From Candidatus Heimdallarchaeum aukensis (GTDB lineage Archaea > Asgardarchaeota > Heimdallarchaeia > Heimdallarchaeales > Heimdallarchaeaceae): DNA of 64,000 nt. The stretch's first letter is position 1. Every line of letters begins with the position of its first letter. The notes beneath the pieces were generated by a model. That model did no database searches, was not told where the DNA came from, and saw only the letters and a list, made by a program, of their open reading frames with translations. Of the stretch, positions 1 through 49,400 are shown one piece after another. A program made the translations under genes and the position numbers. The stretch is taken from contig CP084166.1 in NCBI GenBank assembly GCA_021513695.1, positions 224,001-288,000 of the forward strand. The letters run 5' to 3'.

Positions 1-980
1 TCTAATAATTGATTAGCAGCAACAACAACAGAAGCTGAAGCAGGTTCAATAAATAAGCCTTCTTTTTTTGCTAAAAGAAGGGCTTGATCTATCATTTTTT
101 CTCCCTCTATTTCAATTTCTTTTCCTTTAGTTTTTAGAAGAATATCGCCGATTTTTTGAGAAAGTGTCTGAGGTGTAGGAATCTTTAGAGATTCTGCATA
201 AAAGTCTAAATCTTCTTGTTTCAAAGACACAGCATAAAATGAGGGGATTTTTTCTATCCAACCAGATGCTAAAGCATCTTCAAAACCCCTATATATAGAA
301 TAGAAAAGAGAGCCAGAACCTTTTGGAATAATAATATTTTCAATTGTTTCAGATAAGTGAGCGATTTCTAAACCTATAGTTTTCTGACCTTCAACAGTCA
401 AAATATTGTCAGATGAAGCGAAAAAAACTCCACCCTTTTGTAGTTCTCTCCCCTTCTCAATTGCTTCTTCAGTAGTAGAACCATGTTCGACTACTTTACT
501 TCCATAAACTTTCATCTGTTCAATTTTTGATAATTCTAAATTCGAAGGTACAATGTTAGTGAGTTCTAAACCTGCTAATGCAGAGTAAGCTGATAAACTT
601 ATGCCTAAAGAACCAGAACTAGAGCACACCAGTTTAGAAATAGAGGAAGAAGAAAGATAAGAAGCAATAAGTGAAGATGCACGGTCTCTGAATGATCCAG
701 TTGGATTTCTAAATTCAAGTTTTAGTTTTAATCCTTTTAGTGATGAAATGTTGTTAATTAATAAAATAGGTGTATTTCCTTCAGACAATGTATAAACCTT
801 CTCTAGTGAAGGTAAAAAAGGACTGAATGACCATATATTTGATATTTTTATCTTACTTTTTTCAGGTCCTTGAATAGGGTCTATGTTTTGGATAGAACCA
901 CAAAAAGGGCAAAGAAGATCAAAATTAATAGATAATGTATCTTTCTTACATTTGATACAATACGGTTTTTTCTTCCACAT
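1..980 (-). CDS. Threonine-synthase-like PLP-dependent enzyme (fold type II), 5' partial at window edge. Has an N-terminal CxxC...CxxC zinc ribbon, and Arg at the position of the PLP Schiff-base Lys.
   Basis: Manual minus-strand translation from ATG (revcomp of 978-980): MWKKKPYCIKCKKDTLSINFDLLCPFCGS...LEFRNPTGSFRDRAS...VCSSSGSLGISLSAYSALAGLELTNIVPSN. The 'NPTGSF(K)DR' signature of ThrC/CysM-type enzymes is present, but the codon at 687-689 is AGA (Arg); I checked it is in frame with the start. Confidence 0.6.
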   Translation of the reverse strand, partial: MWKKKPYCIKCKKDTLSINFDLLCPFCGSIQNIDPIQGPEKSKIKISNIWSFSPFLPSLEKVYTLSEGNTPILLINNISSLKGLKLKLEFRNPTGSFRDRASSLIASYLSSSSISKLVCSSSGSLGISLSAYSALAGLELTNIVPSNLELSKIEQMKVYGSKVVEHGSTTEEAIEKGRELQKGGVFFASSDNILTVEGQKTIGLEIAHLSETIENIIIPKGSGSLFYSIYRGFEDALASGWIEKIPSFYAVSLKQEDLDFYAESLKIPTPQTLSQKIGDILLKTKGKEIEIEGEKMIDQALLLAKKEGLFIEPASASVVVAANQLL

Positions 981-991
981 TTTTTAGCTCC

Positions 992-1186
992 TTATTCTGT
1001 TAAAACAGGCTCTTCTTTTGGATCGATTCTAATATCGCTATTACAGAGTGCATCAAAAATTTCTTCGATCTTAAAAGAATCAGGGTCTTTAAAGTAGAGA
1101 TAAAGTTCCAAATCTCTCTTGATTAAGAAATCAAGAAGTTTTATAAGCAATTCTTTTTCTGTTTTTGAGTTAACAATAATTTGCAT
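992..1186 (-). CDS. Small hypothetical protein (64 aa) immediately upstream of, and co-oriented with, the ThrC-like gene
   Basis: ORF track. Its stop lies 12 bp from the downstream start, which suggests an operon. No recognisable motif and no C-terminal GG. Confidence 0.35.
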   Translation of the reverse strand: MQIIVNSKTEKELLIKLLDFLIKRDLELYLYFKDPDSFKIEEIFDALCNSDIRIDPKEEPVLTE

Positions 1187-4507: not shown

Positions 4508-5092
4508 GTGGTACAAATGAACTCATTGAATCAAAACATCTTTAAAATCGTACTCCTTGGAGAAGGAGCTGTAGGAAAAACCTCTTTAAAACGAACTTAT
4601 ATGGGTGAAGAATTCGTAGAAGGATATAAAATGACAGTAGGTGCTGATTTCGCAGTCAAGAAACTGGAGGTAGATTTCTACAAAATAACTTTGCAGATAT
4701 GGGATCTAGCAGGGCAACCTAGGTTTGATGCGGTAAGAGAGGCATACTATAGAGGAGCTAAAGGAGCTTTACTAGTTTTTGATATCTCTAGACCAGAAAC
4801 ATACGAAATACTACCTAAATGGCTAAATGAGTTAATAAAAAACAGTGGTGGACGAAAGGTACCAATAATTCTAATTGGAAATAAATCTGACTTGCGCGAA
4901 AAACATGATCAAACTGTTCCAATTAACTATGCTGAAGATTATGCTGAAAAGCTAACAATGTGGTCTGGATATCACGTGTCTTACGTTGAAACAAGTGCAA
5001 AAACGGGAGAAAATGTAGAAAAAGCCTTTAGTGAATTAGCTCTTCAACTTGTACGTAATTTAGAAAAATTAAAAGTTGAACTAGGGATATAA
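4508..5092 (+). CDS. Ras/Rab-like small GTPase (eukaryote-signature type)
   Basis: 194 aa. G1 'GEGAVGKTS', switch-II/G3 'WDLAGQPRF' (DxxGQ), G4 'GNKSDL' (NKxD), G5 'ETSAK'. This is a Rab/Ras-like layout rather than a bacterial Era/Obg one. Confidence 0.85.
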   Translation: MVQMNSLNQNIFKIVLLGEGAVGKTSLKRTYMGEEFVEGYKMTVGADFAVKKLEVDFYKITLQIWDLAGQPRFDAVREAYYRGAKGALLVFDISRPETYEILPKWLNELIKNSGGRKVPIILIGNKSDLREKHDQTVPINYAEDYAEKLTMWSGYHVSYVETSAKTGENVEKAFSELALQLVRNLEKLKVELGI

Positions 5093-18120: not shown

Positions 18121-18219
18121 TGTTGTTTCATAGGTTAATTTCAGTTTTATTCATTGTTAATCACATACCCTCGTAACCCACTTTCTATATTTTTGTTACC
18201 TATTTTTCTTGAGTAAACA
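18121..18219. mobile_element. MITE-like / solo-end remnant related to the IS481-like element at 37789..38799, in inverted orientation
   Basis: 18165-18200 'TACCCTCGTAACCCACTTTCTATatttttGTTACC' is the reverse complement of 37808-37840 (GGTAACaaataaATAGAAAGTGGGTTACGAGGGTA) with 2-3 mismatches. The terminal 'GAGTAAACA' at 18211-18219 matches revcomp of the IRL tip 'TGTTTACTC'. 18121 starts 'TGTTGTTTCATAGG', weakly like the other IS end. No transposase ORF lies inside. Confidence 0.45.
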
Positions 18220-18259: not shown

Positions 18260-18730
18260 TTACTCTCCAAGAATTTTTGTTTTAAGATTAGCCATTTCAA
18301 TTGCTGAAAGAGCAGCATCTACTCCTTTATTTCCCATTTTTGTTCCTGCTCGCTCTATTGCTTGTTCTAGTGTATCAGTTGTTAATATTCCGTAACTTAT
18401 TGGTACATCTAGGTTCAATGATGCTTTAGCAACTCCTTTTGATACTTCACTGGCTACGTAATCAAAATGTGGCGTTGCACCTCTAATAACTGCCCCCAGA
18501 GCTATTATTGCATCATATTTTTTCTTTTCGCCCATTATTTTGAGAGTATAAGGTATTTCAAAAGCTCCTGGAGTCCATACTACATCTATATCTTCATTCT
18601 CGACTTCATGTCGTATTAATGTATCTATGGCTCCTTTTAGCAATTTACTTGTAATTAGTTCATTAAACCTACTTACAACTATTCCGATCTTTAAATTTTT
18701 TCCTGTTTGTTTTCCTTCAAAAATTTTCAT
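18260..18730 (-). CDS. ribH: 6,7-dimethyl-8-ribityllumazine synthase
   Basis: 156 aa. '[20 protein letters not shown]...[10 protein letters not shown]...[16 protein letters not shown]' is the canonical lumazine synthase core. Confidence 0.9.
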
Positions 18731-18741
18731 TTATACTCCTC

Positions 18742-19944
18742 TCAATTATCGATAATATTCAACAAATGACCCAATTTCTCTTGTTTCGCTTTTAAGTAAG
18801 CATAATTTTGTATATTAGGATCCATTCTCAAAGGTATTCTCTGTGCTATTTTTATGTTGTATTTCTCAAGTTTTTTTATTTTATCAGGATTGTTTGTTAA
18901 TATTCTGATCTCGTTTATTCCTAAATCTTTCAAAATATCCGCAGCTATCTTATAATCTCGCAAATCTGCAGGAAAACCTAATTTTAGATTTGCATCGAAA
19001 GTATCATATCCACACTCTTGAAGTTTGTAAGCTTTCAATTTATTTAATAAACCAATTCCTCTTCCTTCTTGTCTTAAATAGAGTAGTACTCCCGTTCCTT
19101 CCTCTGCTATCATTTCCATAGATTTCTCAAGTTGCGAACCACAATCACATTTTAATGATTTTAAAACATCACCTGTAAGACATTCAGAATGTAATCGGAT
19201 CAATATTGACTGATTTTCTTTTATTTCTCCTTTAATTAAAGCAATATGTTCTAATCCATTATACTTGTCGCTATAACCTATAATCTTGAATGTTCCAAAT
19301 TTTGTAGGTATATTTGTTTCTACTACACGTTCAACAAAGCTCTCATTTTTTAATCTATATTCAATCAATGAAGATATTGTTATAATTTTCAATCCATATC
19401 TTTGAGCAAAAGAGAGTAACTCTGGAACTCTTGCCATGTGTCCATCATCTTTTATTATTTCGCAAATAACAGCTGCGGGAAAAGCATTACAGATTTTTGC
19501 TAAATCAACAGATGCTTCTGTATGTCCCTCTCTTTTTAGAACTCCTCCTTCTACAGCAATTAAAGGAAAAATGTGTCCGGGTCGTCTGAAATCTTCTGCT
19601 TTTTTAGTACGGTCTGTAATGTCACGAACAGTTTTTGCACGTTCATAAGCAGAAATTCCTGTAGTACAATCAATACTGTCAATCGATACCGTAAAAGCAG
19701 TTTGGTTGGGATCATTATTCTTTGTAACCATAAGAGACAAGTTTAACTCTCTTGCTCTTTCAGAAGTAATGGGCACACAGACCAACCCTCGAGCAAAACG
19801 GATCATAAAATTAATTGTATCTGGTGTGATTCTATCGGCTAAAGCTACAAGATCTCCCTCATTCTCTCTCTCTTCATTATCAATTACAATGATACATTTT
19901 CCTTCTTTTAAATCTTTTATGGCTTCTTCTATTGAATTAAACAT
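18742..19944 (-). CDS. ribBA: Bifunctional 3,4-dihydroxy-2-butanone-4-phosphate synthase / GTP cyclohydrolase II
   Basis: 400 aa. N-terminal '[17 protein letters not shown]' (RibB). C-terminal '[20 protein letters not shown]' zinc site and '[19 protein letters not shown]' (RibA). Confidence 0.9.
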
Positions 19945-19954
19945 TTAACCACTC

Positions 19955-20611
19955 CTAAAAACTATGTTCAAACAAAAATTCTTTTGAAAGAATGATTGAT
20001 TGCCTTTTCTCCTCATTGAACTTTTGCAGCAAATGTTCAACATATTTTGATAATATGTCGCACTCGATATTAACTACAGAACCTATCGAATATTTTCTCA
20101 TGATAGTATTTTCCAAAGTATGAGGAATAATAGAGACAGTAAAGCTACTAGAATTTTTATAGACACCGACAACAGTCAAACTTACACCATCAATAGCAAT
20201 CGAACCCTTTGGAACAATATAATTTAGAAGAAATGAACGAGTTTTTATTCTAAAAATTATTGAATTTTGTTTTGTTTCTTTCTTAACTATTTCTCCCATG
20301 GCATCAACATGCCCTTGTACAAAGTGGCCGTTTAATCGATCTTGTAACTTCAAAGCTCTCTCAAGATTAACAAATGAACCTCTCTGAAGAAATTTTAGAT
20401 TTGTTCGTTCTAATGTTTCTGGCATCATATCAGCTGTAAAGGCTGTACTAGTAAAACCAGTAACTGTTAAACATACTCCATTAACAGAAATACTTTCTCC
20501 AATACGTATATCTTGTAAAACTGTTCTAGCCTTTATCTCAATTTTACACTGGCTTCTTGACCTATTTAGATGATTAACTAAACCTATTTCTTCAATAATT
20601 CCTGTAAACAT
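19955..20611 (-). CDS. ribE: Riboflavin synthase, alpha subunit (bacterial/eukaryal type)
   Basis: 218 aa. 'MFTGIIEEIG' N terminus. Internal duplication with 'GESISVNGVCLTV' and 'GSIAIDGVSLTV' half-site repeats. Confidence 0.85.
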   Translation of the reverse strand: MFTGIIEEIGLVNHLNRSRSQCKIEIKARTVLQDIRIGESISVNGVCLTVTGFTSTAFTADMMPETLERTNLKFLQRGSFVNLERALKLQDRLNGHFVQGHVDAMGEIVKKETKQNSIIFRIKTRSFLLNYIVPKGSIAIDGVSLTVVGVYKNSSSFTVSIIPHTLENTIMRKYSIGSVVNIECDILSKYVEHLLQKFNEEKRQSIILSKEFLFEHSF

Positions 20612-20993
20612 TGGTTCGACCTACATTGTTCCATTTGTGTGAAATTACGGTAATTTGAATTTAGGAACTCTAATTGAATTAAAAACCTACTCATATATTA
20701 ACATTGTTACTCATATACTGGTAATTGCTCTATAGAGAAAACAAAGAAAAGAGTATTTTAAACGTAATTCTTTGTTATTATTCAAAAATAGGAGTACAAA
20801 ACTGTCAAAATATATAAAATACTAAACAAATTATTTTGATAAATCTGTTTTAAAATTAATTAAAAAACTTTCAAATAAAGAATAAGACCCTCAACAACCT
20901 TCTATGGCTTTACTTTTTAGTTTTGTTTTTTTATATCTGTTCTAAAAAGATGCCTTTTTGTAACAACCTCTTTCTTATTTATTACCCCCTTTA

Positions 20994-21028
20994 TTTCGAG
21001 TGGAAAGACCTTTTTTTCGAGTGGAAAA
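20994..21028. repeat. Tandem direct repeat 'TTTCGAGTGGAAA(G/A)' x2 with 21-bp spacing, ~390 bp upstream of the rib operon start
   Basis: Copies at 20994-21007 and 21015-21028. They lie in the 550-bp intergenic region between the HlyIII-like gene and ribE. Candidate operator or protein-binding site, function unknown. Confidence 0.4.
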
Positions 21029-21163
21029 AATGATAGATAAAAGATTGGAATCATTAAAGTAGGACGTTGTAATAGGTCTGAAAATTTATTTAAAATGTAA
21101 TAATTTGAAAACTTAATTTCATTACTTTCTGGTAATAAGTATTAAATGAGGAAAAAGTAGAAA

Positions 21164-21802: not shown

Positions 21803-21916
21803 AAGTAATGGTTTTCTAACTTGTATTTATTTATTTTCAAACAAAATTTTGTTAACCTAATTTTTGGAAAAAAGAAAGACTAATTAAGACAATGAATCTT
21901 TCGAAGTTAGACAAAG

Positions 21917-22931: not shown

Positions 22932-23566
22932 TTGAATATGCGAGAAAATGAAGAAATAGAAATTAAAGGAAAAAGTAAAATTAGAAGAATAGCATCTCTT
23001 GATTTTCAAAGAGGATTGGCAATTTGGATGATGGTTTTTTTACACGTCTGGAATCATATTTACGACTTTAGTTGGATAGATTTAGGAACAATATTTCAAG
23101 AAGCAAACTTTCTTTTTGGAATTTGGGTAATTTTCTGTGGATTTTTCGGCGGGTGGGCTGGATATTTCCTTTAATTTCTTCAACAGTTAACGCTTTAGCT
23201 TCTGTGAAAAAAGTAAGAAAAAGTGGAAGTGCTGAAAGAGTTTTAGCAAAGCAAATTCTTACAGGAATAGGGGTTCTTATAGCTGGAAGATTGACAGAAG
23301 CTTTTGGATACTACGGTTATTTTGAAGAGTCTTTAGGTCAGGAAAATCACTTTTTTCGATAGAAACTTGGACCGATACACACTACTACTCTTTTATTTGG
23401 AGAAGAATCTTTATGGTTGAAGCTCTTCAGATTATTGGCTGGGCTATGATAATTAACGCTGTTATTCAATTTTTCTTGATCAAGAATGGAGGAGCAGAAA
23501 AAACGGTAAGAAACTTGATGATTTATGCTTCTTTAGTTGTTCTTGTTGCTACTCCTTTCATATGAG
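22932..23566 (+). pseudogene. Disrupted DUF1624/HGSNAT-like acyltransferase-family membrane protein gene (at least 2 frameshifts plus an in-frame stop)
   Basis: Three consecutive ORF fragments in different frames (22932..23174, 23072..23362, 23424..23566) read as one membrane protein. The N terminus 'RRIASLDFQRGLAIWMMVFLHVWNH' matches the R..SLD..RG.A...M...H signature. A TAG stop at 23363 is followed by a TM-like tail in a third frame. Confidence 0.5.
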
Positions 23567-23595
23567 TTGAAATTTTACTTAATTTCTTCAGGACT

Positions 23596-23766
23596 CTACC
23601 CAACCAGTCAACAAACATATCGAAAGTTGTGAGGACTGGGTTAAGAGAACATGAAAGACACAGTCTTAAGTGAGTTCTCTAAAGGGTTCATCTCCTGATC
23701 CCGGGCACTCATCACTCCCACATGGAAGACCGGGTGTCGTAGGAATGAAACCTACGTCTTTAAGCA
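23596..23766. ncRNA. Candidate structured non-coding RNA of unknown class (GC-rich, multi-hairpin, ORF-free island)
   Basis: Local GC is well above the ~30% background. Hairpins: AGAGAAC(23645-51)/GTTCTCT(23674-80); CCCGG/CCGGG around 23700-23738; CGTAGG-AATGAAA-CCTACG at 23739-23757; AACCAGTC/GACTGGGTT at 23604-23642. The minus strand carries a C-box-like GUGAUGA. There is no ORF of at least 60 aa in 23567..24043. Confidence 0.3.
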
Positions 23767-24043
23767 TATAGATCAAAACACTAGATAAATGAGAATTGAA
23801 TATATAAAGACTGCAGAAAAGTTGTGACACTTCCCAATATCGTGTATTCTTTATTAATCCAAATGTGCTTCTGGTTGTTCTTGGTCTAATAACTCCACAA
23901 ACTAAAAATTTAGTTCTTTACGTAAAAAAGTATTTCATCAAAACTAAACTTCAGAGAGATGCTAAAATAATGTGGAATGGTTAAATTATAAAGAACTTTC
24001 CAGATCCTAACTCTTTTTTTCTTTTAAAAAAATGAGAAAAAGA

Positions 24044-24856
24044 TTACTCTTTAACTGCTTTTAAGGCAAATAAAAGAGGAAAATCAATTTTTTCATCTTT
24101 GAAGTACCAATATCTGTCTTCATGTTGTACTAAAAAAGGAAATTGCTTAAATTCACTAAACGGATATTCGTTAAACAATTCAATTTTTAGTCCTTCTTTT
24201 ATCAAAGAATTGAGGATTTCACTTATAGTATGCATCCACTCGTAAGTCTTTAAATGTTCGATTTTTTTATCAGAATCAGTGTAAGTGTATTCAGAATCAA
24301 ATTCCATTGCTTCTTTTGAGAAATAACTGTATCTAATTTTTAGTTCTTTTTCATTTTCATCATCAAAGACATGTGAGAGAGGGTGCGATTCTACAATTAG
24401 AAAATTTCCACCTTTTCTTAAAAATTTGGAAATTATTTCTGCCCATTTTCTTATGTCAGGTAACCAAGGTAGAACACCATAAGTAGTGAAAACAATATCA
24501 AACTTTTCTTTTAGAAGCTTATCAAGATCATAAATGTTTGCACAAATAAATTTAGCACGAACATTAATTTGTTCACTTAATTTTTTGGCAAAGGTAATAG
24601 CTTTTTCAGAAAAGTCTACTCCAGTCACTTGAGCTCCCATTCTAGCTAAAGAAAGGGTATCCATTCCAAAGTGACATTGTAAATGGAGTATTTTTTTTCC
24701 TTTTATATTTCCAAGCAGTTCAAGCTCAACTGAGTGTAAAGAGTTTTTTCCTTTTAGAAAACCCTCTAAATCATAGCTTTTTGATTTTGAATGAATCTCA
24801 ACAAGTTCATCCCATCGCTTTTTATTTGTTTCCATAAATTCTTTGTTGCTATCCAT
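24044..24856 (-). CDS. Class I SAM-dependent methyltransferase
   Basis: 270 aa. 'KILHLQCHFGMDTLSLARMGAQVTGVDFS' is motif I (GxGxG-like) with an acidic motif II downstream. Confidence 0.75.
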   Translation of the reverse strand: MDSNKEFMETNKKRWDELVEIHSKSKSYDLEGFLKGKNSLHSVELELLGNIKGKKILHLQCHFGMDTLSLARMGAQVTGVDFSEKAITFAKKLSEQINVRAKFICANIYDLDKLLKEKFDIVFTTYGVLPWLPDIRKWAEIISKFLRKGGNFLIVESHPLSHVFDDENEKELKIRYSYFSKEAMEFDSEYTYTDSDKKIEHLKTYEWMHTISEILNSLIKEGLKIELFNEYPFSEFKQFPFLVQHEDRYWYFKDEKIDFPLLFALKAVKE

Positions 24857-24967
24857 TATGGAAAACTGAAAAGTTAGCTAATAAGAATTTCTATATATTA
24901 TCTTTTACAATATTTTAAATAGAAGTTTTTTCTAAATAGGCAAAAAGCAAATACCTACGAAGAGTAG

Positions 24968-33552: not shown

Positions 33553-33747
33553 TTATTTCTTTTCTAAATATATTACTTTTTCAAACATATTTGTAAGTGG
33601 TAATAAAACAAAAAGATTACTCTCTTCAGGTAAATTGTCGATAGAAGTGTAGAGTATAAAAGGCGAGTCTTCAGATTCTCTAATCATAATCTTAAAGAAA
33701 GGATTCAGAGAAACAATTTTTTTAATGTCTTCAATAGATATGGTCAT
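33553..33747 (-). CDS. Small hypothetical protein (64 aa)
   Basis: ORF track only. It abuts the downstream end of the TnpB element. Confidence 0.25.
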   Translation of the reverse strand: MTISIEDIKKIVSLNPFFKIMIRESEDSPFILYTSIDNLPEESNLFVLLPLTNMFEKVIYLEKK

Positions 33748-33988
33748 GATTTACTTTTTTACGTAAAGTTTTTCACACTCTGTCTTGCAAGAGAGAAAAC
33801 TAAAGGAAGTTTAATCTCTTGAACTCAACCAAGCCATACAATGCCATGAAGGGGTTGAGACAGACATCATACACGAATCGTGGGAATCATAAAGAAGAAA
33901 AGAACTAAAAACTCTTTTCTTCACTCCACGAGAGACAAAAAAGAAAGAATTACTCCTATAATAGAGAAGGAGTTAAGTTCTTTTTTGT

Positions 33989-35443
33989 CTACTGGGGCTG
34001 CAACCAATGGCTGAGCCCTCGGCAAACAGTGAAATGGGAAGAACTGAACCTTTGACCAGTGAGGTAATCAGTGATAGTTGTTCCTCGAGGACGAAAAAGA
34101 GCACCAAGGAACTTACGAGCGATATTCATTGCTCCTGTGAGGTCAGAGTGGAAAGTGTAATTGCAAGAGGGGCAATGGACTAAACCTCTAACAGGACGGA
34201 CAACTTTCCTTCCACAACGAGTACAGTGAGAGGATGTCCCTCTTTCCTCTACGGTTAATATTCGATGAGGGTCAAAACCTCTTAATATCAATGCTCGACG
34301 GAGAAGAGTAAGAACTAGAGAAAAGTTCCACTGATGAAGTTTCCTGCGAAACTTACGCGCACTGTTCCCTTTTCCTTTATCTTTTCTCACATTTTTGGGG
34401 TAACCTACGACGACGAAAAGGTCATACCTTCGAGCATAGGTCTCTATCGTCTGCACAACCTCACTTATAAATTGGTGAATATAGGACAGTTTAACGTTTC
34501 TATATCTTCTTCGGAGAAGACTAAGAAAACGATAAACTTGGTGTTTTTTACCCGACTGGTCGTTTAAAGCTGCTTTCCTCTGAAGACGGGAAAGTTTGAG
34601 TTTATATCTATGATTGATTTTATTCCATTGTTTGGTATACCAGAATTTTATTTCTTCACTTGTTAATTTCTTTTTAGGGGTTAGTAACACTCCTGCAGCA
34701 GGAATGTTTATCCCTAGATCTATTCCCAGCACAGCTGGAGGAAGAGAAGAAGAACTTTTTTTTTTAGGAGGATAAAAAGAAGGAGGAGGAAGAACTCTTA
34801 GTTGGAAATACACCCACCACTCATGTGTAGAACGTTTATATCTTAGTTCTAAACTTTTTATTCGTCCTTTCTTTAATTCCTTCTGGTGGAAAGTGCTCAT
34901 CTCTAAAGGCAACCATAACTTCTGATGATATGGGGTATTTCTTTTCCACGTATCTAACGAGTCTCTTATCCCCACCCACCAACGAGCGAGAGTGTTATTC
35001 TTCTCTTTAGGTAAATGGACGAGAACGAACCTCTTTGCATTAATTAGTTGTCTTCTTGCTCTCTTTATTGGAGGACGAGTATTATTAGGTCTATACCCTT
35101 GTTCATATAATTGTACGGCTATATCTCTACACTCTTGAAATTCATTGTGGGAACAATAAGGGAACATTTTCTTCAGATCGTGAGGGACATTCTTTCTTCT
35201 CTCTTCTTCTTTAACTTTTGAAGTAGTTAGCGTCAACTCATCTAGTTTTCCTCTATGCACTCTTATTTTCCCTTTTTTAGTTTTAGTACATATTTTTCTT
35301 CTGTTGTGGTGTATAATTCTCACATACTTTTCTATTATCCTCGTATCTCTTCCCGTTATTCTCCTTAACCTTTCCTTCTTCCTCGTCGTCAATACCTCCT
35401 TCTTTATTCTCACTTTCAAGGTTTTGACGACGTCCTTCACCAT
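33989..35443 (-). CDS. tnpB: TnpB (OrfB) RuvC-like RNA-guided nuclease of IS200/IS605 family
   Basis: 484 aa. 'VLGIDLGINIPAAG' (RuvC-I Asp), 'RRYDLFVVVGYPKNVRKDK', Zn ribbon 'CTRCGRK...HCPSCNYTFHSD', and RuvC-III 'SDLTGAMNIARK'. Confidence 0.85.
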   Translation of the reverse strand: MVKDVVKTLKVRIKKEVLTTRKKERLRRITGRDTRIIEKYVRIIHHNRRKICTKTKKGKIRVHRGKLDELTLTTSKVKEEERRKNVPHDLKKMFPYCSHNEFQECRDIAVQLYEQGYRPNNTRPPIKRARRQLINAKRFVLVHLPKEKNNTLARWWVGIRDSLDTWKRNTPYHQKLWLPLEMSTFHQKELKKGRIKSLELRYKRSTHEWWVYFQLRVLPPPSFYPPKKKSSSSLPPAVLGIDLGINIPAAGVLLTPKKKLTSEEIKFWYTKQWNKINHRYKLKLSRLQRKAALNDQSGKKHQVYRFLSLLRRRYRNVKLSYIHQFISEVVQTIETYARRYDLFVVVGYPKNVRKDKGKGNSARKFRRKLHQWNFSLVLTLLRRALILRGFDPHRILTVEERGTSSHCTRCGRKVVRPVRGLVHCPSCNYTFHSDLTGAMNIARKFLGALFRPRGTTITDYLTGQRFSSSHFTVCRGLSHWLQPQ

Positions 35444-35580
35444 CTTTCTCTTTTCTCCTTCTTTCCTCTTTTTTTTGTTTCTTCTTCTCTTTTTTATTCT
35501 ACTTTTTTCCCTATAAAAACCCCTCTCCTTCCTCTCCTCTCCTTTCTTTTTTCTCTCTACATTTTCCTCAATAATTGTAA
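35444..35580. repeat. Long polypyrimidine (CT-rich) low-complexity tract immediately upstream of tnpB
   Basis: 35300-35580 on the plus strand is almost exclusively C/T ('cctctccttcctctcctctcctttctttttt...'). The 70-aa poly-F/L ORF 35304..35516 is a translation artefact of this tract. Confidence 0.6.
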
Positions 35581-35581
35581 A

Positions 35582-36082
35582 TTACGTAAAAAATAGACGC
35601 ATGCTAGAAGTTAATTTCTTTAGAGATTCAAGAGGTATAGCTGAAAGATTATTTAGAATTGTAAACTCTAAATTCATTTTTGTTAATATTTGACTAAAAG
35701 CAGTTATCCTCTTCCTAGCATTAGACAGATGATCTCGTATGGTTGAAGGGCTATTTTGAGTAAACTTTGCTATTTCTTCTGATTTGAAATCTAAAATATC
35801 GTGAAGATAAAAACAAAGAAATTGTTTGTCAGATAAAACGGAAGAAACAGGATTAATATCAGAAAAATAACCAAGGTTTACTAATTTAGAAACAGTTTCT
35901 AAAAAATCTAATTCTTGAACTTCTTCTTTAATACTATCTTTCCTTTTAAAAGAAAAAAGAATAACTAAGGAAGCTCTTCTAATTTCCATGTTAATGAAGA
36001 GTTTTAAATGTTTAATACTTTCAGGAATTTTGGGTAAAAATTCTTTATGATCTTCATTTTTTACTAGAATCGAAAATTTCAT
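35582..36082 (-). CDS. Hypothetical protein with sigma-70 region-4-like / LuxR-like HTH
   Basis: 166 aa. 'LSDKQFLCFYLHDILDFKSEEIAKFTQNSPSTIRDHLSNARKRI' matches the sigma70_r4_2 pattern (LxxxxRxVfxLxxxeGlSyeEIAexlgisxgTVksrlhrARkkL). Confidence 0.4.
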   Translation of the reverse strand: MKFSILVKNEDHKEFLPKIPESIKHLKLFINMEIRRASLVILFSFKRKDSIKEEVQELDFLETVSKLVNLGYFSDINPVSSVLSDKQFLCFYLHDILDFKSEEIAKFTQNSPSTIRDHLSNARKRITAFSQILTKMNLEFTILNNLSAIPLESLKKLTSSMRLFFT

Positions 36083-37788: not shown

Positions 37789-38799
37789 TGTTTACTCTAT
37801 CCACGTTGGTAACAAATAAATAGAAAGTGGGTTACGAGGGTAAATGATGTATTATGAACAAACCCAAACGTAACCTAGAGAGACTAAGAAAGATTGTGGT
37901 TAAAAAAGCTTTGGAAGGAGAGAAGATAAAAGAGGTAGCTCACAGGTTTATGGTGAGTAGGAAGTTTGTTTACAAGTGGTTGAAGAGGTTCAGAGAGAAC
38001 CCTGAAGGAGAATGGTGGAAGAATAGATCATCTAGACCTAAAACTATACACAGGAAAGTGGATGAGGAGTTAAGAGAGAAGATAAGGGAGTTAAGAGTAA
38101 AGCAAGGAATGAACGTGGAGAAGATAGTTTATCTGTTGAAGAAAGAAGGAAGAGCATTATCGCGAAACACAGTAGTTAAAGTAATAGGAGAGTTAGGTCT
38201 TCCTCTGTGGAGTAATAGAAAAAAGAGAAACAGAACTCAATACAAGAGTTTTGAACGCTCTAGCCCTAACGAACTCTGGCAGATAGATGTGAAAGGACCA
38301 TTCTGGATAGAAGAACAAGGACAACACCTTTATCTCATAACCTTGATAGACGACCACTCACGATTCTGTCTGGGAGCTAAACTCCACCCTTTTGCACCGA
38401 AAAAAGAGCAGATAATAAGTTTGTTAGAAGGAGCAATAGAAAAATATGGACACCCCGAGTCTATCCTCACGGACAATGGAGCACTCTTCTACTCCGTTAG
38501 AGGAGGAACAAGTACCTTCTCCCGTTGGTGTCAAACAGAAGGAATAAAACACATCAGATCTAGAGTTTTTCACCCCGAAACATGCGGAAAAGTAGAAAGA
38601 CTACATGGAACCATCATCCGTGAGATGAAAAGACTAGGACTAACCTACTGTAACTCCGACCTCTCCTTCTACCGCTCTTACTACAATTTTAGCCGTCCTC
38701 ACCAGTCTCTTAACCTCCTTACCCCTGGAGAAAAATTTATGAATCACCCCTACGTTTCTCTAGTGCCCAAAAGTGTAACCCAGGTCTATTGAGTGAACA
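37789..38799 (+). mobile_element. IS481-family-like insertion sequence (single DDE transposase, 25-bp imperfect terminal IRs, 15-bp TSD)
   Basis: IRL 37789-37813 'TGTTTACTCTATCCACGTTGGTAAC' versus revcomp of 38775-38799 'TGTTCACTCAATAGACCTGGGTTAC' (18/25 match, both start TGTT). The transposase stop lies inside the IRR. Flanked by an identical 15-bp direct repeat. Confidence 0.7.
37854..38792 (+). CDS. DDE transposase with rve (integrase core) domain and N-terminal HTH, IS481-like
   Basis: 312 aa. N-terminal HTH ('VAHRFMVSRKFVYKWLKRF'). DDE triad candidates 'WQIDVKG', 'ILTDNGALF' and 'GKVERLHGT'. Confidence 0.85.
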   Translation: MNKPKRNLERLRKIVVKKALEGEKIKEVAHRFMVSRKFVYKWLKRFRENPEGEWWKNRSSRPKTIHRKVDEELREKIRELRVKQGMNVEKIVYLLKKEGRALSRNTVVKVIGELGLPLWSNRKKRNRTQYKSFERSSPNELWQIDVKGPFWIEEQGQHLYLITLIDDHSRFCLGAKLHPFAPKKEQIISLLEGAIEKYGHPESILTDNGALFYSVRGGTSTFSRWCQTEGIKHIRSRVFHPETCGKVERLHGTIIREMKRLGLTYCNSDLSFYRSYYNFSRPHQSLNLLTPGEKFMNHPYVSLVPKSVTQVY

Positions 38800-46425: not shown

Positions 46426-49400
46426 ATGAAAAAGAAGTTGAAATTCATGTTAATTATGTTTTTAGTTTTGCCATTATCATTAAATCATGTCTTAGCAGAA
46501 AATGTTATTGAACTATTAAATCTTCAATCAAGATATCCTATTAATTATAAAAGTAAAGATTCAGATGTTATTTCTATAAAATCAACAATTGGAAAAGACA
46601 ATGAATTATCTATCAGAAAAAAAGAGAATAGTGTAATAAGTTCGTTAAATAATGAGTTTGTTAGTCCTTATTCTCCTAAATTGAGTTATGGATTGTACAA
46701 AACTTTTACACAGATTTCATCTGTTCCTGAATCAATAAATAAAGGAGAAAATATTAGTGTAACTTCTTCAACAAAATTTGATTTAGGAACTTTATATCCT
46801 GTAGATCAAGGAACAATTTATTGGTATGATTTGAATTGTCTAGAAGAAGATCTGGGAGTAAGTACGAGTTTTGTAGAATCAAGTAAAATAGCTATCAGTT
46901 TTAATTTAACTTCTCCCTCTAACTATATGGGTGTTTATTTTGACATCTCAAATTTAGCAGATTTAACAGGAGATGTGTTAAACGTTTATCTTACTTCAGA
47001 TCTAGAAAACTATTCTACTGATTACCTGGCGAAAAGTGAACTGTCTTTTAAGTATTACAATTCTCAAGCTGGTGTATCTGGATTTTATGCTATTTATGAT
47101 AGTCCAACAACAACTCAAGTTGATAATTCCTTATTAGCAGGTGAAACATATTTTGTGGTTTTGGAAGGAGACAGTTCTTTGAGAATCGAAACATCACTTG
47201 ATTCAGAAGAATATGATGACAATAAAGTATATGTTTTTTCAGGGGGTTCTTGGGGTTTAGAACAAGGAATAGATGCAAAAATAAGAATATTCTCTGGTCA
47301 AAAAATTACTGAAAAAACTATTTCTTCTTCTAGCAATGGAGAAACTACAATAACTTATCAGTCATCTCAATCCTCTTTTAAATATCATACTTTAGTCGCT
47401 TTCTACTATGATACTTCTGGAATGTATGATCTTTCAAGTGATTCTTCAGATTTCAAAGTAATTGACAGCACAATTCCAGAGTATATTTCATTAAATAGTC
47501 CTTCTATAGCTGAATATACAGATTACATTGAGTTGAAAGCTTATGTTGAAAACTACTATCACCAAGAACTAGAAAATCAAACTGTATATTTCTATTACTC
47601 TGAAGATAACTCTTCATGGATAGAAATTGGTTCTTCCATTTCAGATAGTACAGGAGTGGCAAAGATAAATTTCTTAATCTCAAAAGCTTCTGGATACTAC
47701 TACTTTAAAGCAGTAACACAAAATTTAGAAACTTTTAACTATACTGAAACTACCAAAGAACAAGTAATTATTGAAACTCCTCTAGTTCAAACAATTTATG
47801 GAAATCTGAGTGGATCTGATACTTTAGAGACTTTTAGTTTGAAAGTACAAGTACATGATAATGATAATACTCCAATCTCTGGAGTAATGGTTTTCTTTTA
47901 TGTAGAAGGAAAAACTTTTGTTTACGACATTACTGATGAAAACGGTTACGCAAAAACGCATAGCTATTCAGTTAATTGGGCTGTTGGATACTATAACAAC
48001 AAATATTGGGTAAATATCGACTTAGATACTAATTTGTATTCATTTCCTGATACTCAATATGGTGACATTGAAGTACAAAAATCAAATTTACAAATATACA
48101 GTTTAGATAATAATACAATCAATGTCTGGATAAACGACTCCTATTTCTCTTTTGAAGTTAAAGACCCAGAAAATGATTCTGTAGCAAATATAGAATTTGA
48201 ATCAATTTTATATGATCCTTATTTTGATGAATATGTATCTTTAGGTTACGCATTTACAAATGATACAGGATATGGTAAAATTACCCTCCCAGCTTACTTT
48301 AAAGAACCAGGAAAGTATACTTTAATAATTCGCATTTCTGACCCTAACTACAATGTTATTGAAGAAAATCTGCAACTAGAATTATATGCTTCATCAAGTA
48401 TAATAGAGTGTAATTTACCTTCTTCAATCGAATATACATACAATTCTTCTTTACTAATTGAAGGGAATGTGACTGATATAAATGGTAAACCTCTAGCTAA
48501 CGCAAACATAACTGTAAAAATTACTGACCCAAGTATATCTAGTAATTGGGTATTATACATTTATACTACAGAGACAAATTCGCAAGGATACTTTTCTATG
48601 AATTTAACTCTAGATGTTGAAGTTGATCAGGAACTGGTTATAACTATTCATGTAGAAAATTATTATGGCTCTAATGGTGAGATTTCTTATTATGCTACAT
48701 CTTCACAAGAATACAATCTTCTATGTGTTAGGCGAGATGCTGAAATTTTAAATGTTCAAGACTTTATAACCCAGAATCAAGAAACAATAATAATATCTGG
48801 TTTGCTAATTGATTCTGGAGAACCTTTAAGTGGAAAAGAGATAAGAATAATTATTCAAGAAGAGAACTACTATATTATTACAGATACAGAAGGATGTTTT
48901 TACCTTAGTTACCAAGTAAATTTTGGTACAAATGTTAACTTTACAGTTGTTTTTGGGAGTGATAATCATTATAATGTTGTCAATTTAACAAGAACAATAT
49001 TTTCTTCTCCAATAAGTTTAAACATCGAAATTGAAGATGTTATTTGCAATCCAAACACTTTAATCTATTTATCAAGCTATGTCTATTCTGATTTAGGAAC
49101 AACACCTGAAAATGTGCAAGTAGAATTTTATTGGTATGATGAACAATGGATACTTTTAGGAATAGTTTTTACAAATGAATCAGGTATAGCTCAACTGAAT
49201 ATTACAAGTCCTGATAAGGTCGGAGAATTTAGCTGGAAAGCAATAGTTGTTCAAACTGAAGATTGGTTAGAATCATCTTCTAATTTGAAATTATTCCAAA
49301 TAGGTTATCACACCTCAATAAGTATGGAAGCACCAATACAAGGACAATATGGAAATGAAATTAGAATTAATTTCACAGTTACAGATCAATTTGGACAACC

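What the first reader, a model, noticed from the sequence alone, without database searches (positions are those of the whole stretch)
23596..23766. GC-rich, hairpin-dense ~170-nt ORF-free segment: candidate novel structured RNA
The segment lies in a 480-bp stretch with no ORF of at least 60 aa, directly after a decayed membrane-protein pseudogene. Its GC content clearly exceeds both flanks.

It contains at least four nested or adjacent helices of 6-7 bp:
- AGAGAAC/GTTCTCT
- CCCGG/CCGGG enclosing ~25 nt
- CGTAGG/CCTACG with a 7-nt loop
- AACCAGTC/GACTGGGTT

The minus strand has a C-box-like GUGAUGA next to GUGCCCGGGAUCAGGAG, which faintly recalls the 3' strand of SRP-RNA domain IV. However, I cannot find the conserved GGAA/AGCAGC partner strand, the tRNA T-loop, or RNase P CR-I/IV/V motifs. 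I therefore leave the class unknown.
Basis: seen in the sequence. Interest (0 to 1): 0.55.

Follow-up and report, generated by a model that had tools for sequence, protein, structure and literature searches.

The report
Small gene-less transposon in Asgard archaeon
The GC-rich, hairpin-rich stretch is the core of a 375-base gene-less "hitch-hiker" transposon that shares its ends with a TnpB-encoding insertion sequence 10 kb away in this Heimdallarchaeum genome, so it is a fairly ordinary mobile element rather than a new cellular RNA gene.

Summary
Window 23596-23766 is one of the most GC-rich spots in a 29% GC genome. It has no ORF of 60 aa or more, and all four helices are present.

It is not a stand-alone RNA gene, and it is not the tail of the neighbouring pseudogene. 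It is the interior of a discrete 375-nt insertion, 23564-23938 (boundaries ambiguous by 2 nt).
- The insertion is exactly absent from the same site in the complete genome of Ca. Heimdallarchaeum endolithica PR6.
- A metagenome contig carries it at the same locus (96% identity).
- Another contig carries it between unrelated genes (85% identity), with identity starting and stopping at the same two ends.
- Its last 23 nt match the right end of a TnpB-encoding insertion sequence in the same window (33746-35600). Its left end carries the same TTTTACnTAATTT motif.

No reading frame resembles any protein. The 33-codon minus-strand ORF has a premature stop in one copy. The C-box-like GUGAUGA is not conserved.

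Best reading: a non-autonomous, PATE/MITE-like derivative of an IS200/IS605-type element. Whether the core acts as RNA is open. The plus strand folds better than shuffles (z -2.7) and substitutions avoid the helices (P = 0.007), but there is no covariation. It is a new member of a known kind, of modest interest.

The parts
23564..23938 (+). The whole 375-nt non-autonomous element (PATE/MITE-like). It could equally be 23562-23936, because AT occurs at both junctions.
   Evidence: It is absent from Ca. H. endolithica PR6, where window 23563 abuts 23937/9. Identity to the second copy, L085, begins at TATGAGTTG and ends at TTTCAT, with unrelated flanks. A profile search recovers the full length in the window, L087 and L085.
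23556..23563 (+). Left flank and presumed target motif (TTTCATAT). The other left flanks are ATTCATTAT in L085 and TAGCAT for the TnpB IS.
   Evidence: The motif itself is inferred from only three junctions.
23569..23586 (+). Left-end hairpin GAAATT-TTACTT-AATTTC. It contains the motif ATTTTACTTAATTT, which resembles TTTTTACGTAATTT at the presumed left end of the TnpB IS (about 35580-35593).
   Evidence: Read from the sequence. It is predicted in every fold and is invariant in the three copies.
23596..23766 (+). It holds four helices (23604-42, 23645-80, 23700-34, 23738-56).
   Evidence: It is 94.7-95.9% identical among copies. There are 13 variable positions and none falls in the 52 helix positions (P = 0.007).
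23666..23767 (-). A 33-codon ORF (MLKDVGFIPTTPGLPCGSDECPGSGDEPFRELT), judged not to be a gene.
   Evidence: L087 has a premature stop (TCA to TAA) and the changes in L085 are mostly non-synonymous (read). No protein match was found and no gene with this product is on record.
23801..23808 (.). TATA-box-like octamer, TATATAAA on the plus strand and TTTATATA on the minus strand. It is identical in all three copies and is a possible internal promoter.
   Evidence: Any promoter role is inference only.
23831..23847 (+). Block TTCCCAATATCGTGTAT, similar to TTCCCACGATTCGTGTAT at the 5' edge of the conserved right-end module of the TnpB IS (33886-33869, minus strand).
   Evidence: Found by eye. A profile search did not pick it up, so this is weak.
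23916..23938 (+). Right-end terminal motif CTTTACGTAAAAAAGTATTTCAT, containing the palindrome TTTACGTAAA.
   Evidence: 21 of 23 nt are identical to the terminus of the TnpB IS at 33768-33746 (BLAST E = 0.002 within the window). In seven metagenome contigs the similarity stops right after TCAT.
33746..35600 (-). Related TnpB-encoding insertion sequence. The tnpB ORF is 33989-35443, the right end is at 33746, and the left end near 35600 is tentative.
   Evidence: Pfam Cas12f1-like_TNB, E = 1.6e-9. The right end is fixed by five metagenome copies with different right flanks. The left end is inferred from the shared motif.
22932..23563 (+). Upstream part of the broken HGSNAT_cat/DUF1624-like membrane-protein pseudogene, into whose remains the element is inserted.
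23966..24009 (+). Short downstream remnant of the same pseudogene (MWNG*IIKNFP against homologue FMWNWIDNLTWTNLP).
   Evidence: Frameshift-tolerant alignment scores 28 against shuffles at 19.2 +/- 3.0, with 1 of 100 as good.

Best explanation
The segment is the internal, GC-rich part of a 375-nt gene-less transposable element. The element is a non-autonomous (PATE/MITE-like) relative of the TnpB-encoding IS200/IS605-type insertion sequences in this Heimdallarchaeum genome.

**Shown**
- It is a discrete unit with fixed ends.
- It is present or absent between close relatives, leaving a clean empty site.
- It occurs in at least two unrelated genomic contexts.
- It shares its right terminus, and a left-end motif, with a TnpB IS in the same window.
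- It encodes no recognisable protein.

**Inferred**
- It is moved in trans by a transposase encoded elsewhere. For this family that would be a Y1 TnpA acting on single-stranded DNA by 'peel-and-paste', recognising the palindromic TTTAC(G)TAA motifs near both ends and inserting next to a ...CAT/AT motif.
- The GC-rich core is passenger or scaffold sequence inherited from the parent element. Its hairpins are mildly constrained.
- If the core has a function, the likeliest is a plus-strand transcript running towards the right end. That would be an omega-RNA-like guide scaffold used in trans by TnpB, as described for other PATEs.
- It may equally be functionless relic sequence whose high GC simply reflects mobile-DNA composition.
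For: 1. **Empty site.** Against the complete PR6 genome (CP084167.1, about 90% nt identity on both sides), the window alignment breaks at 23563 and resumes at 23937 with nothing in between. PR6 reads TTTCATAT|CAAGAC.
2. **Second copy.** L085 carries the element between a membrane-protein ORF and a DNA methylase ORF. It is 85% identical over 377 nt, and its flanks are unrelated from the first base outside TATGAGTTG...TTTCAT.
3. **Orthologous copy.** L087 has the element at the same locus at 96% identity.
4. **Shared ends.** The last 23 nt match the right end of the TnpB IS at 33746-33768. Five further copies of that IS in metagenomes all end at ...TCAT and then have different flanks. The left-end motif is similar. 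TnpB identity comes from Pfam.
5. **No coding capacity.** All six frames were searched against 5.8 billion proteins with no hit at E <= 10, and Pfam found nothing.
6. **Assembly behaviour.** Contigs of two other assemblies (a Logan assembly and an NCBI MAG) stop inside the element. Logan contigs end at 23580 and 23910, the latter 29 nt inside the right end, and a MAG contig ends at 23674. Repeats or polymorphic insertions behave this way.
7. **Structure.** The plus-strand fold of the whole element has z = -2.70, against -0.92 for the minus strand. None of the 13 variable core positions falls in a helix (P = 0.007).
8. **Literature.**
   - PATEs that lack genes and often encode omega RNAs used in trans are described for IS200/IS605 elements (PMC10055086).
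   - IS200/IS605 is the commonest IS family in archaea and is present in more than 65% of Asgard genomes (PMC13343696).
Against: - No Y1 tnpA was found in the window, so the mobilising enzyme is unknown.
- IS605-type and IS607-type mobilisation are not distinguished.
- Because AT sits at both junctions, a 2-bp AT target duplication with imperfect terminal inverted repeats cannot be excluded.
- Only two insertion sites are documented, both known only through metagenome or MAG data. Copy number in this genome could not be measured.
- Outside the termini the element shows no significant similarity to the TnpB IS (profile search). An omega-RNA role with that particular TnpB is therefore unsupported, and no parent element was found.
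- No compensatory base changes were seen.
- The core is no more conserved than the right-end module.
Confidence: 0.85

Rival explanations
1. A free-standing, chromosomally encoded structured non-coding RNA gene, such as a novel archaeal sRNA, a C/D-box or H/ACA-like guide RNA, or an SRP-like RNA.
For: It is a GC-rich island in an AT-rich archaeal genome with four helices. A TATA-like box lies about 35 nt from the minus-strand 5' edge of the segment. Substitutions avoid the helices.
Against: - It is absent from the orthologous site of PR6.
- It is embedded in a unit with transposon ends that also occurs elsewhere.
- Rfam found nothing at gathering scores. The best sub-threshold match is a 17-nt sequence-only match to Ocean-VII at 15.8 bits against a threshold of 53.5.
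- GUGAUGA is not conserved.
- The core fold z-scores are -1.3 and -0.9, and there is no covariation.
Confidence: 0.04
2. The decayed, untranslated 3' tail of the neighbouring membrane-protein pseudogene.
For: It follows the pseudogene directly on the same strand. The intact homologues are more than 120 residues longer than the part preserved here.
Against: - A frameshift-tolerant alignment of the homologue's C-terminal part to 23564-23938 scores below the shuffle mean (22 against 24.2).
- The stretch after the insertion scores 28 against 19.2 +/- 3.0.
- tblastn shows no collinear hit past residue 212.
- PR6 keeps both pseudogene parts but lacks the segment.
- The same segment lies in an unrelated locus in L085.
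Confidence: 0.02
3. A small protein gene on the minus strand: the 33-aa ORF 23767-23666, possibly leaderless and downstream of the TTTATATA box.
For: The open frame has an ATG about 35 nt downstream of a TATA-like box. The ORF is intact in the window and in L085.
Against: - L087 has an in-frame stop after codon 23.
- The window and L085 differ by about 4 non-synonymous and 2 synonymous changes (read).
- No homologue was found among 5.8 billion proteins or in Pfam.
- No gene with this exact product is on record in the public assembly collection searched.
Confidence: 0.03
4. The element is a conventional cut-and-paste MITE with terminal inverted repeats and a 2-bp AT target duplication, mobilised by a DDE transposase rather than an IS200/IS605-type Y1 enzyme.
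For: AT flanks the unit on both sides in all three cases where both junctions are known, including the tentative left junction of the TnpB IS. The two ends are 13 of 23 identical as inverted repeats, because the TTTACGTAAA motif is palindromic (I19, and own reading). DDE-type (rve) transposase genes exist in the window.
Against: - The termini are shared with an IS whose only gene is tnpB. That architecture is typical of IS200/IS605 (IS1341-type) elements.
- The rve IS in the window has different ends.
- The inverted-repeat similarity is poor outside the palindrome.
Confidence: 0.08

Closest known systems
PATEs (palindrome-associated transposable elements): gene-less derivatives of IS200/IS605 / IS1341-type elements, described in Haloquadratum walsbyi (PMC3119063) and Geobacillus stearothermophilus (PMC10055086)
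   Same: - A few hundred nucleotides long with no gene.
- Ends shared with TnpB-only insertion sequences in the same genome.
- Palindromic or hairpin motifs near both ends.
- A clean empty site in a relative.
- Insertion next to a short conserved flank motif.
   Different: - The host is an Asgard (Heimdallarchaeum) archaeon.
- The interior (the GC-rich core) has no detectable similarity to the local TnpB IS.
- No omega-RNA homology or transcript has been shown.
- The mobilising TnpA has not been identified.
TnpB omega RNA (reRNA) of IS200/IS605 elements
   Same: - It would lie on the same strand as the element's left-to-right orientation and end at the right terminus.
- The plus strand folds better than shuffles.
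- The last 23 nt, next to where a guide would start, are shared with the TnpB IS.
   Different: - The conserved right-end module of the local TnpB IS (about 145 nt) is not significantly similar to this element, apart from the terminus and one short block.
- Part of the corresponding region is deleted in copy L085 (33 nt).
- The GC-rich core sits nearer the left end than an omega-RNA scaffold normally does.
Archaeal MITEs with terminal inverted repeats (e.g. Sulfolobus SM1-SM4; from my own knowledge, and cited as a class in PMC13343696)
   Same: Small, non-coding, multi-context mobile DNA derived from insertion sequences.
   Different: Those have clear terminal inverted repeats and target-site duplications matching a DDE transposase IS. 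Here the ends match a tnpB-only IS, and any duplication is at most the ambiguous dinucleotide AT.
GC-rich islands as ncRNA genes in AT-rich archaea (the screen of Klein, Misulovin and Eddy 2002; from my own knowledge)
   Same: The same signal brought the segment to attention: a local GC peak in an AT-rich archaeal genome.
   Different: Here the GC peak marks mobile DNA. Of the roughly five GC islands at or above 0.45 in the window, three lie in transposable elements.

Membership tests
IS200/IS605-derived non-autonomous element (PATE) | Termini shared with a tnpB- or tnpA-encoding IS of the family in the same genome | tested here: met
   The right-end 23-mer is 21/23 identical to the terminus of the TnpB IS at 33746-33768. 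The left-end motif ATTTTACTTAATTT resembles TTTTTACGTAATTT (weaker, read by eye).
IS200/IS605-derived non-autonomous element (PATE) | No protein-coding capacity | tested here: met
   No hit for any of six frames. The only ORF is 33-54 codons and is broken in L087.
IS200/IS605-derived non-autonomous element (PATE) | Discrete mobile unit: the same sequence in different genomic contexts, and an empty site in a relative | tested here: met
   PR6 has the empty site. L085 is a second context.
IS200/IS605-derived non-autonomous element (PATE) | Subterminal palindromes or hairpins at both ends | tested here: met
   GAAATT-TTACTT-AATTTC at 23569-23586 and the TTTACGTAAA palindrome at 23917-23926.
IS200/IS605-derived non-autonomous element (PATE) | Insertion without target-site duplication, 3' of a conserved short target motif (TAM) | tested here: inconclusive
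   The left flanks are TTTCATAT, ATTCATTAT and TAGCAT, and the element ends in TCAT. AT at both junctions makes a 2-bp duplication impossible to exclude, and only three left junctions are known, one of them tentative.
IS200/IS605-derived non-autonomous element (PATE) | A cognate Y1 (HUH) TnpA transposase encoded elsewhere in the genome | not testable with these tools
   None of the window ORFs scanned with Pfam matched a Y1 transposase.
TnpB omega RNA | Sequence and structure homology to the scaffold encoded at the 3' end of a tnpB gene, ending at the right end | tested here: not met
   A profile of the 300-nt 3' region of five TnpB IS copies matches only the terminal 21 nt of the element (E = 0.07). 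No frame matches a TnpB C-terminus.
TnpB omega RNA | A transcript reading through the right end into the flanking guide | not testable with these tools
   No expression data are available.
Known RNA families (Rfam 15), tRNA, tmRNA | Covariance-model match at the gathering score, or an ARAGORN call | tested here: not met
   There are 0 Rfam matches in the 64-kb window. The best sub-threshold match is Ocean-VII at 15.8 bits against 53.5. ARAGORN found 0 tRNA or tmRNA genes.
C/D-box sRNA | Conserved C (RUGAUGA) and D (CUGA) boxes | tested here: not met
   GUGAUGA in the window reads GUUAUGA in L087 and L085. No properly spaced D box was found by eye.

The most novel reading that the evidence does not exclude
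The GC-rich core is a functional structured RNA carried as cargo by the mini-transposon. It could be an unusually long or divergent omega-RNA-type guide scaffold that recruits a TnpB made elsewhere, letting a gene-less element defend its own insertion sites in an Asgard archaeon. Or it could be a new RNA class that spreads by hitch-hiking on IS200/IS605 ends.
Probability: 0.1. Interest if true: 0.6.

Novelty: new member of a known kind. Interest (0 to 1): 0.3.

Why it matters
- **For annotation:** in this AT-rich Asgard genome a GC-rich, hairpin-rich, ORF-free island does not signal a cellular RNA gene. Three of the roughly five GC islands in the window are transposable elements.
- **For Heimdallarchaeum biology:** the result adds a gene-less, TnpB-IS-related element to the mobile-element inventory. 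The genome paper discusses transposase families, CRISPR-targeted elements and aloposons, and the terms MITE, miniature, non-coding and ncRNA do not occur in its text (PMC8813620).
- **For strain comparison:** presence or absence of the element among close strains gives a handy marker.
- **For mechanism:** the element offers a natural test of whether TnpB and its guide RNA work in trans on gene-less elements in archaea.

Tried and rejected
- **Known RNA classes.** Rfam at gathering scores on the whole window and at E <= 10 on 23300-24100, plus ARAGORN, gave nothing usable.
- **Phage or plasmid origin.** blastn of 23560-23900 against the phage and plasmid collections gave no match. Two exact-pattern scans of IMG/VR with GC-core 23-24-mers gave none.
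- **Alternative genetic code.** I considered that the 'pseudogene' might be an intact gene read in another code. I rejected this because the window is densely coding in code 11 and the breaks are frameshifts as well as TAA, TAG and TGA stops.
- **Pseudogene tail.** By eye I saw collinear-looking matches (I216, L224-P225, D-W, VL-SE-SF). A frameshift-aware alignment with shuffles showed these are chance.
- **Relic of a tnpB or tnpA coding region.**
  - tblastn of the local TnpB against the element gave E > 1.
  - The six-frame search of the 5.8-billion-protein set and Pfam gave nothing.
  - An HUH-like 'VHLLI' and an 'LKGSS' seen by eye lie in overlapping frames of the same DNA, so they cannot both be real.
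- **Small protein.** Rejected because of the stop codon in L087 and the substitution pattern.
- **H/ACA, C/D or K-turn readings by eye.** No consistent box arrangement was found, and the key motif is not conserved.
- **Other copies inside the window or in the 91 fetched loci.** BLAST and nhmmer found only the shared right terminus.
- **Exact-protein look-ups of the small ORFs.** Nothing is on record.
- **Terminal inverted repeats or a tandem duplication around the indel.** Only a weak 10-nt inverted repeat was found, caused by the palindromic end motif.

Full report
**1. What the window is**

The window is 29.3% GC and densely coding in the standard code. Homologues of the broken membrane-protein gene next to the finding all come from Heimdallarchaeota MAGs. 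The methyltransferase gene just downstream (24044-24856, minus strand) is 93% identical at protein level to one in the complete genome of Candidatus Heimdallarchaeum endolithica PR6, CP084167.1. The window therefore comes from a close relative of that Asgard archaeon. A MAG (GCA_054381415.1, locus L003) and Logan contigs of run SRR15988954 (L001, L002) are essentially identical to the window where they overlap it.

**2. The observation**

- GC content rises to 0.41-0.50 across 23600-23750, against 0.23-0.37 on both sides. The peak lies above the 99.9th percentile of 100-nt windows.
- Between 23565 and 24044 there is no ORF of 60 aa or more.
- 22932-23565 is a frameshifted, truncated HGSNAT_cat/DUF1624-like gene.
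- The four helices and the minus-strand GUGAUGA...GGGAUCAGGAG motif are at the stated places.
- The 186-nt core does not fold better than dinucleotide shuffles: z = -1.29 on the plus strand and -0.86 on the minus strand.
- Rfam gives nothing at gathering scores anywhere in the 64 kb. At E <= 10 it gives only a 17-nt, structure-free resemblance to Ocean-VII, at 15.8 bits against a threshold of 53.5.
- ARAGORN finds no tRNA or tmRNA.

**3. The decisive comparison**

I aligned 9 kb around the finding to the PR6 chromosome.
- The region is about 90% identical on both sides. The alignment stops at window 23563 and resumes at 23937 with nothing in between in PR6.
- PR6 reads ...CTCCTTTCATAT|CAAGACTAAAC.... 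The window reads ...CTCCTTTCATAT[GAGTTG ... GTATTTCAT]CAAAACTAAAC....
- The finding therefore lies inside a 375-nt insertion/deletion, 23564-23938. Because AT sits at both junctions, 23562-23936 is equally possible.
- Contigs of two other assemblies (the Logan assembly and the MAG) end inside this stretch. The two Logan contigs stop at 23580 and 23910, the latter 29 nt inside the right end, and the MAG contig stops at 23674. This is the usual behaviour of repeated or polymorphic DNA.

**4. The unit has transposon ends**

- A BLAST of the insertion against the window found one significant match. Its last 23 nt, CTTTACGTAAAAAAGTATTTCAT, recur as CTTTACGTAAAAAAGTAAATCAT at 33768-33746 on the minus strand.
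- That site lies 243 nt downstream of a 484-aa minus-strand ORF (33989-35443) with a Cas12f1-like TNB domain, that is, a TnpB. The match is in the same orientation as the gene.
- A scan of JGI metagenome contigs with this 23-mer returned seven contigs.
- Five of them are copies of the TnpB insertion sequence or its right end. All end at ...TCAT and then have five different flanks, which fixes that terminus to the base.
- Near the presumed left end of the TnpB IS, TTTTTACGTAATTT sits about 9 nt inside a ...AGCAT flank. The insertion has ATTTTACTTAATTT at the corresponding place, inside a perfect 6-bp hairpin at 23569-23586.

**5. It moves**

- L087 is the same locus in another strain. The pseudogene flank is on the left and a PR6-like flank on the right, and it carries the element at 96% identity.
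- L085 carries the element at 85% identity over 377 nt (342 nt long, with a 33-nt internal deletion). It lies between a membrane-protein ORF and a DNA-methylase/restriction gene pair.
- The L085 alignment to the window starts at TATGAGTTG and stops at TTTCAT, and the flanks are unrelated.
- Taken together, the clean empty site, a second genomic context with the same two boundaries, and ends shared with a TnpB IS identify a non-autonomous derivative of an IS200/IS605-type element. The literature calls this a PATE, or more loosely a MITE.
- Such gene-less elements are described alongside TnpB-only insertion sequences. They are said often to encode omega RNAs that must be used in trans (PMC10055086; PMC3119063 listed).
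- IS200/IS605 is the most common IS family in archaea and occurs in more than 65% of Asgard genomes (PMC13343696).
- In the Heimdallarchaeum genome paper the terms MITE, miniature, non-coding and ncRNA do not occur. It reports that non-tandem repeats make up 3% of the genome and that there are 11 transposase or integrase families (PMC8813620).

**6. What the GC-rich core is not**

- **Not the pseudogene's tail.**
  - tblastn homology to intact relatives ends at residue 212, which is window 23562.
  - A frameshift-tolerant protein-to-DNA alignment of the next 54 residues scores 22 on the element, against a shuffle mean of 24.2.
  - The same alignment scores 28 on the 105 nt after the element, against shuffles at 19.2 +/- 3.0 with 1 of 100 as good. 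There MWNG*IIKNFP echoes FMWNWIDNLTWTNLP.
  - The element therefore sits within the remains of the gene.
- **Not coding.**
  - A concatenated six-frame translation found nothing at E <= 10 among 5.8 billion proteins.
  - Pfam found nothing.
  - The local TnpB has no similarity to it.
  - The 33-codon minus-strand ORF has a premature stop in L087 and mostly non-synonymous changes in L085.
- **Not a C/D-box RNA.** GUGAUGA reads GUUAUGA in both other copies.

**7. Is the core a structured nucleic acid?**

The evidence is mixed.
- **For:**
  - The whole element on the plus strand (the left-end to right-end sense, the same sense as tnpB and its guide RNA in the related IS) folds at -89.2 kcal/mol against -75.4 +/- 5.1 for shuffles (z = -2.70). 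The minus strand gives z = -0.92, and plus-strand DNA parameters give z = -1.50.
- Among the three copies, 13 positions of the 171-nt core vary. The one three-state position, 23640, is the bulged G of the first helix.
- **Against:**
  - No compensatory change exists on either strand. With three near-identical copies, that test has almost no power.
  - The long-range plus-strand helix TCAGGA/TCCTGA is broken in both other copies.
  - The core (94.7-95.9% identity) is no better conserved than the right-end module.
  - A profile of the TnpB IS 3' region matches only the terminal 21 nt of the element.
- One short block, TTCCCAnnATnTCGTGTAT, is also shared by eye.
- The right-end module of the TnpB IS shows a little covariation of its own, at 2 pairs.
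- A TATA-like octamer at 23801-23808 is identical in all copies and reads as a TATA box on both strands. This is only a lead.

**8. Mechanism**

- **Shown:** the element is a mobile, gene-less unit with IS ends.
- **Inferred from what is established for IS200/IS605 elements:** it is excised and inserted as single-stranded DNA by a transposase supplied in trans. That enzyme recognises the subterminal palindromes, leaves a scarless donor site as in PR6, and inserts next to a short motif (here ...CAT/AT).
- **Speculative:** a plus-strand transcript running through the right end could serve as a guide RNA for a TnpB made elsewhere. The core may equally be relic sequence from an unidentified parent.
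- GC-richness fits mobile DNA in this genome. The TnpB gene and the rve-integrase gene are the other main GC islands.

**9. Limits**

- IS605-type and IS607-type mobilisation, and a possible 2-bp AT duplication, remain unresolved.

**10. Verdict**

- The interpretation as a novel RNA gene is only partly supported.
- The best explanation is a PATE/MITE-like non-autonomous transposon, with confidence about 0.85 for that identity and about 0.1 for a genuine RNA function of the core.
- It is a new member of a known kind, with interest 0.3.

Noticed in passing
window 33746-35600 (minus strand): A TnpB-only insertion sequence of about 1.86 kb. The tnpB ORF (33989-35443, 484 aa) has a Cas12f1-like TNB domain. 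Its GC-rich 3' part and 243-nt downstream region probably encode its guide (omega) RNA. Its left end appears to run into the 3' end of the HTH-protein ORF 35582-36082. Metagenome copies are 82-90% identical (99% for the short right-end fragment L089).
   Followed up: partly
L086 about 838-1000 (minus strand): A roughly 160-nt mini-derivative of the TnpB IS. It keeps only the last 145 nt (the right-end module starting ATGATTCCCACGATTCGTG), preceded by ATTTTTTAC, which resembles the left-end motif. It looks like a second, even smaller gene-less element of the same family.
   Followed up: no
window 18131-18219 and 37789-37877: An 89-nt inverted repeat at 76% identity. One arm overlaps the start of an rve-family (DDE) integrase/transposase gene (37854-38792, GC-rich). 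The other arm lies alone in the intergenic region downstream of the DMRL synthase (ribH-like) gene 18260-18730. It is probably a solo end or remnant of that IS.
   Followed up: partly
L005 1185-4952 (PR6), corresponding to window about 24896-24905: PR6 has a 3.77-kb insertion between the methyltransferase gene and its neighbour. It is bounded by about 15-nt terminal inverted repeats (GTAGTGTCTAGTTTT / AAAACTAGACACTAC) and holds a 369-aa ORF, so it is probably another IS absent from the window.
   Followed up: no
L005 7644-9447 (PR6), corresponding to window about 21835-21846: PR6 carries about 1.8 kb with four small ORFs between the alpha/beta-hydrolase-like gene and the HlyIII gene. The window lacks this stretch.
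   Followed up: no
window 23165 and 23290-23350: The pseudogene has one frameshift shared with the MAG GCA_054381415.1 (near 23165). A second, near 23290-23350, seems absent from the MAG's gene call P0005. This could be real strain variation or a homopolymer sequencing error.
   Followed up: no
window 23564-23969 vs PR6: Even in PR6, 35 nt of unrelated sequence (ATATCAAGACTAAACTTCAAAGAGATGCTAAAATA) separate the pseudogene's ...ATPF codons from the MWN... remnant. An older rearrangement or footprint therefore predates the element's insertion.
   Followed up: no
window 18260-20611 and 20612-21163: A riboflavin biosynthesis gene cluster (lumazine-binding protein, DHBP synthase/GTP cyclohydrolase II, DMRL synthase) has no FMN riboswitch hit upstream. 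From my own knowledge this is usual for archaea.
   Followed up: no
window 4508-5092 and 46426-52791: A Ras/Roc/Arf-family small GTPase gene, which from my own knowledge is a typical Asgard 'eukaryotic signature' protein, and a 2121-aa ORF of unexamined function.
   Followed up: no
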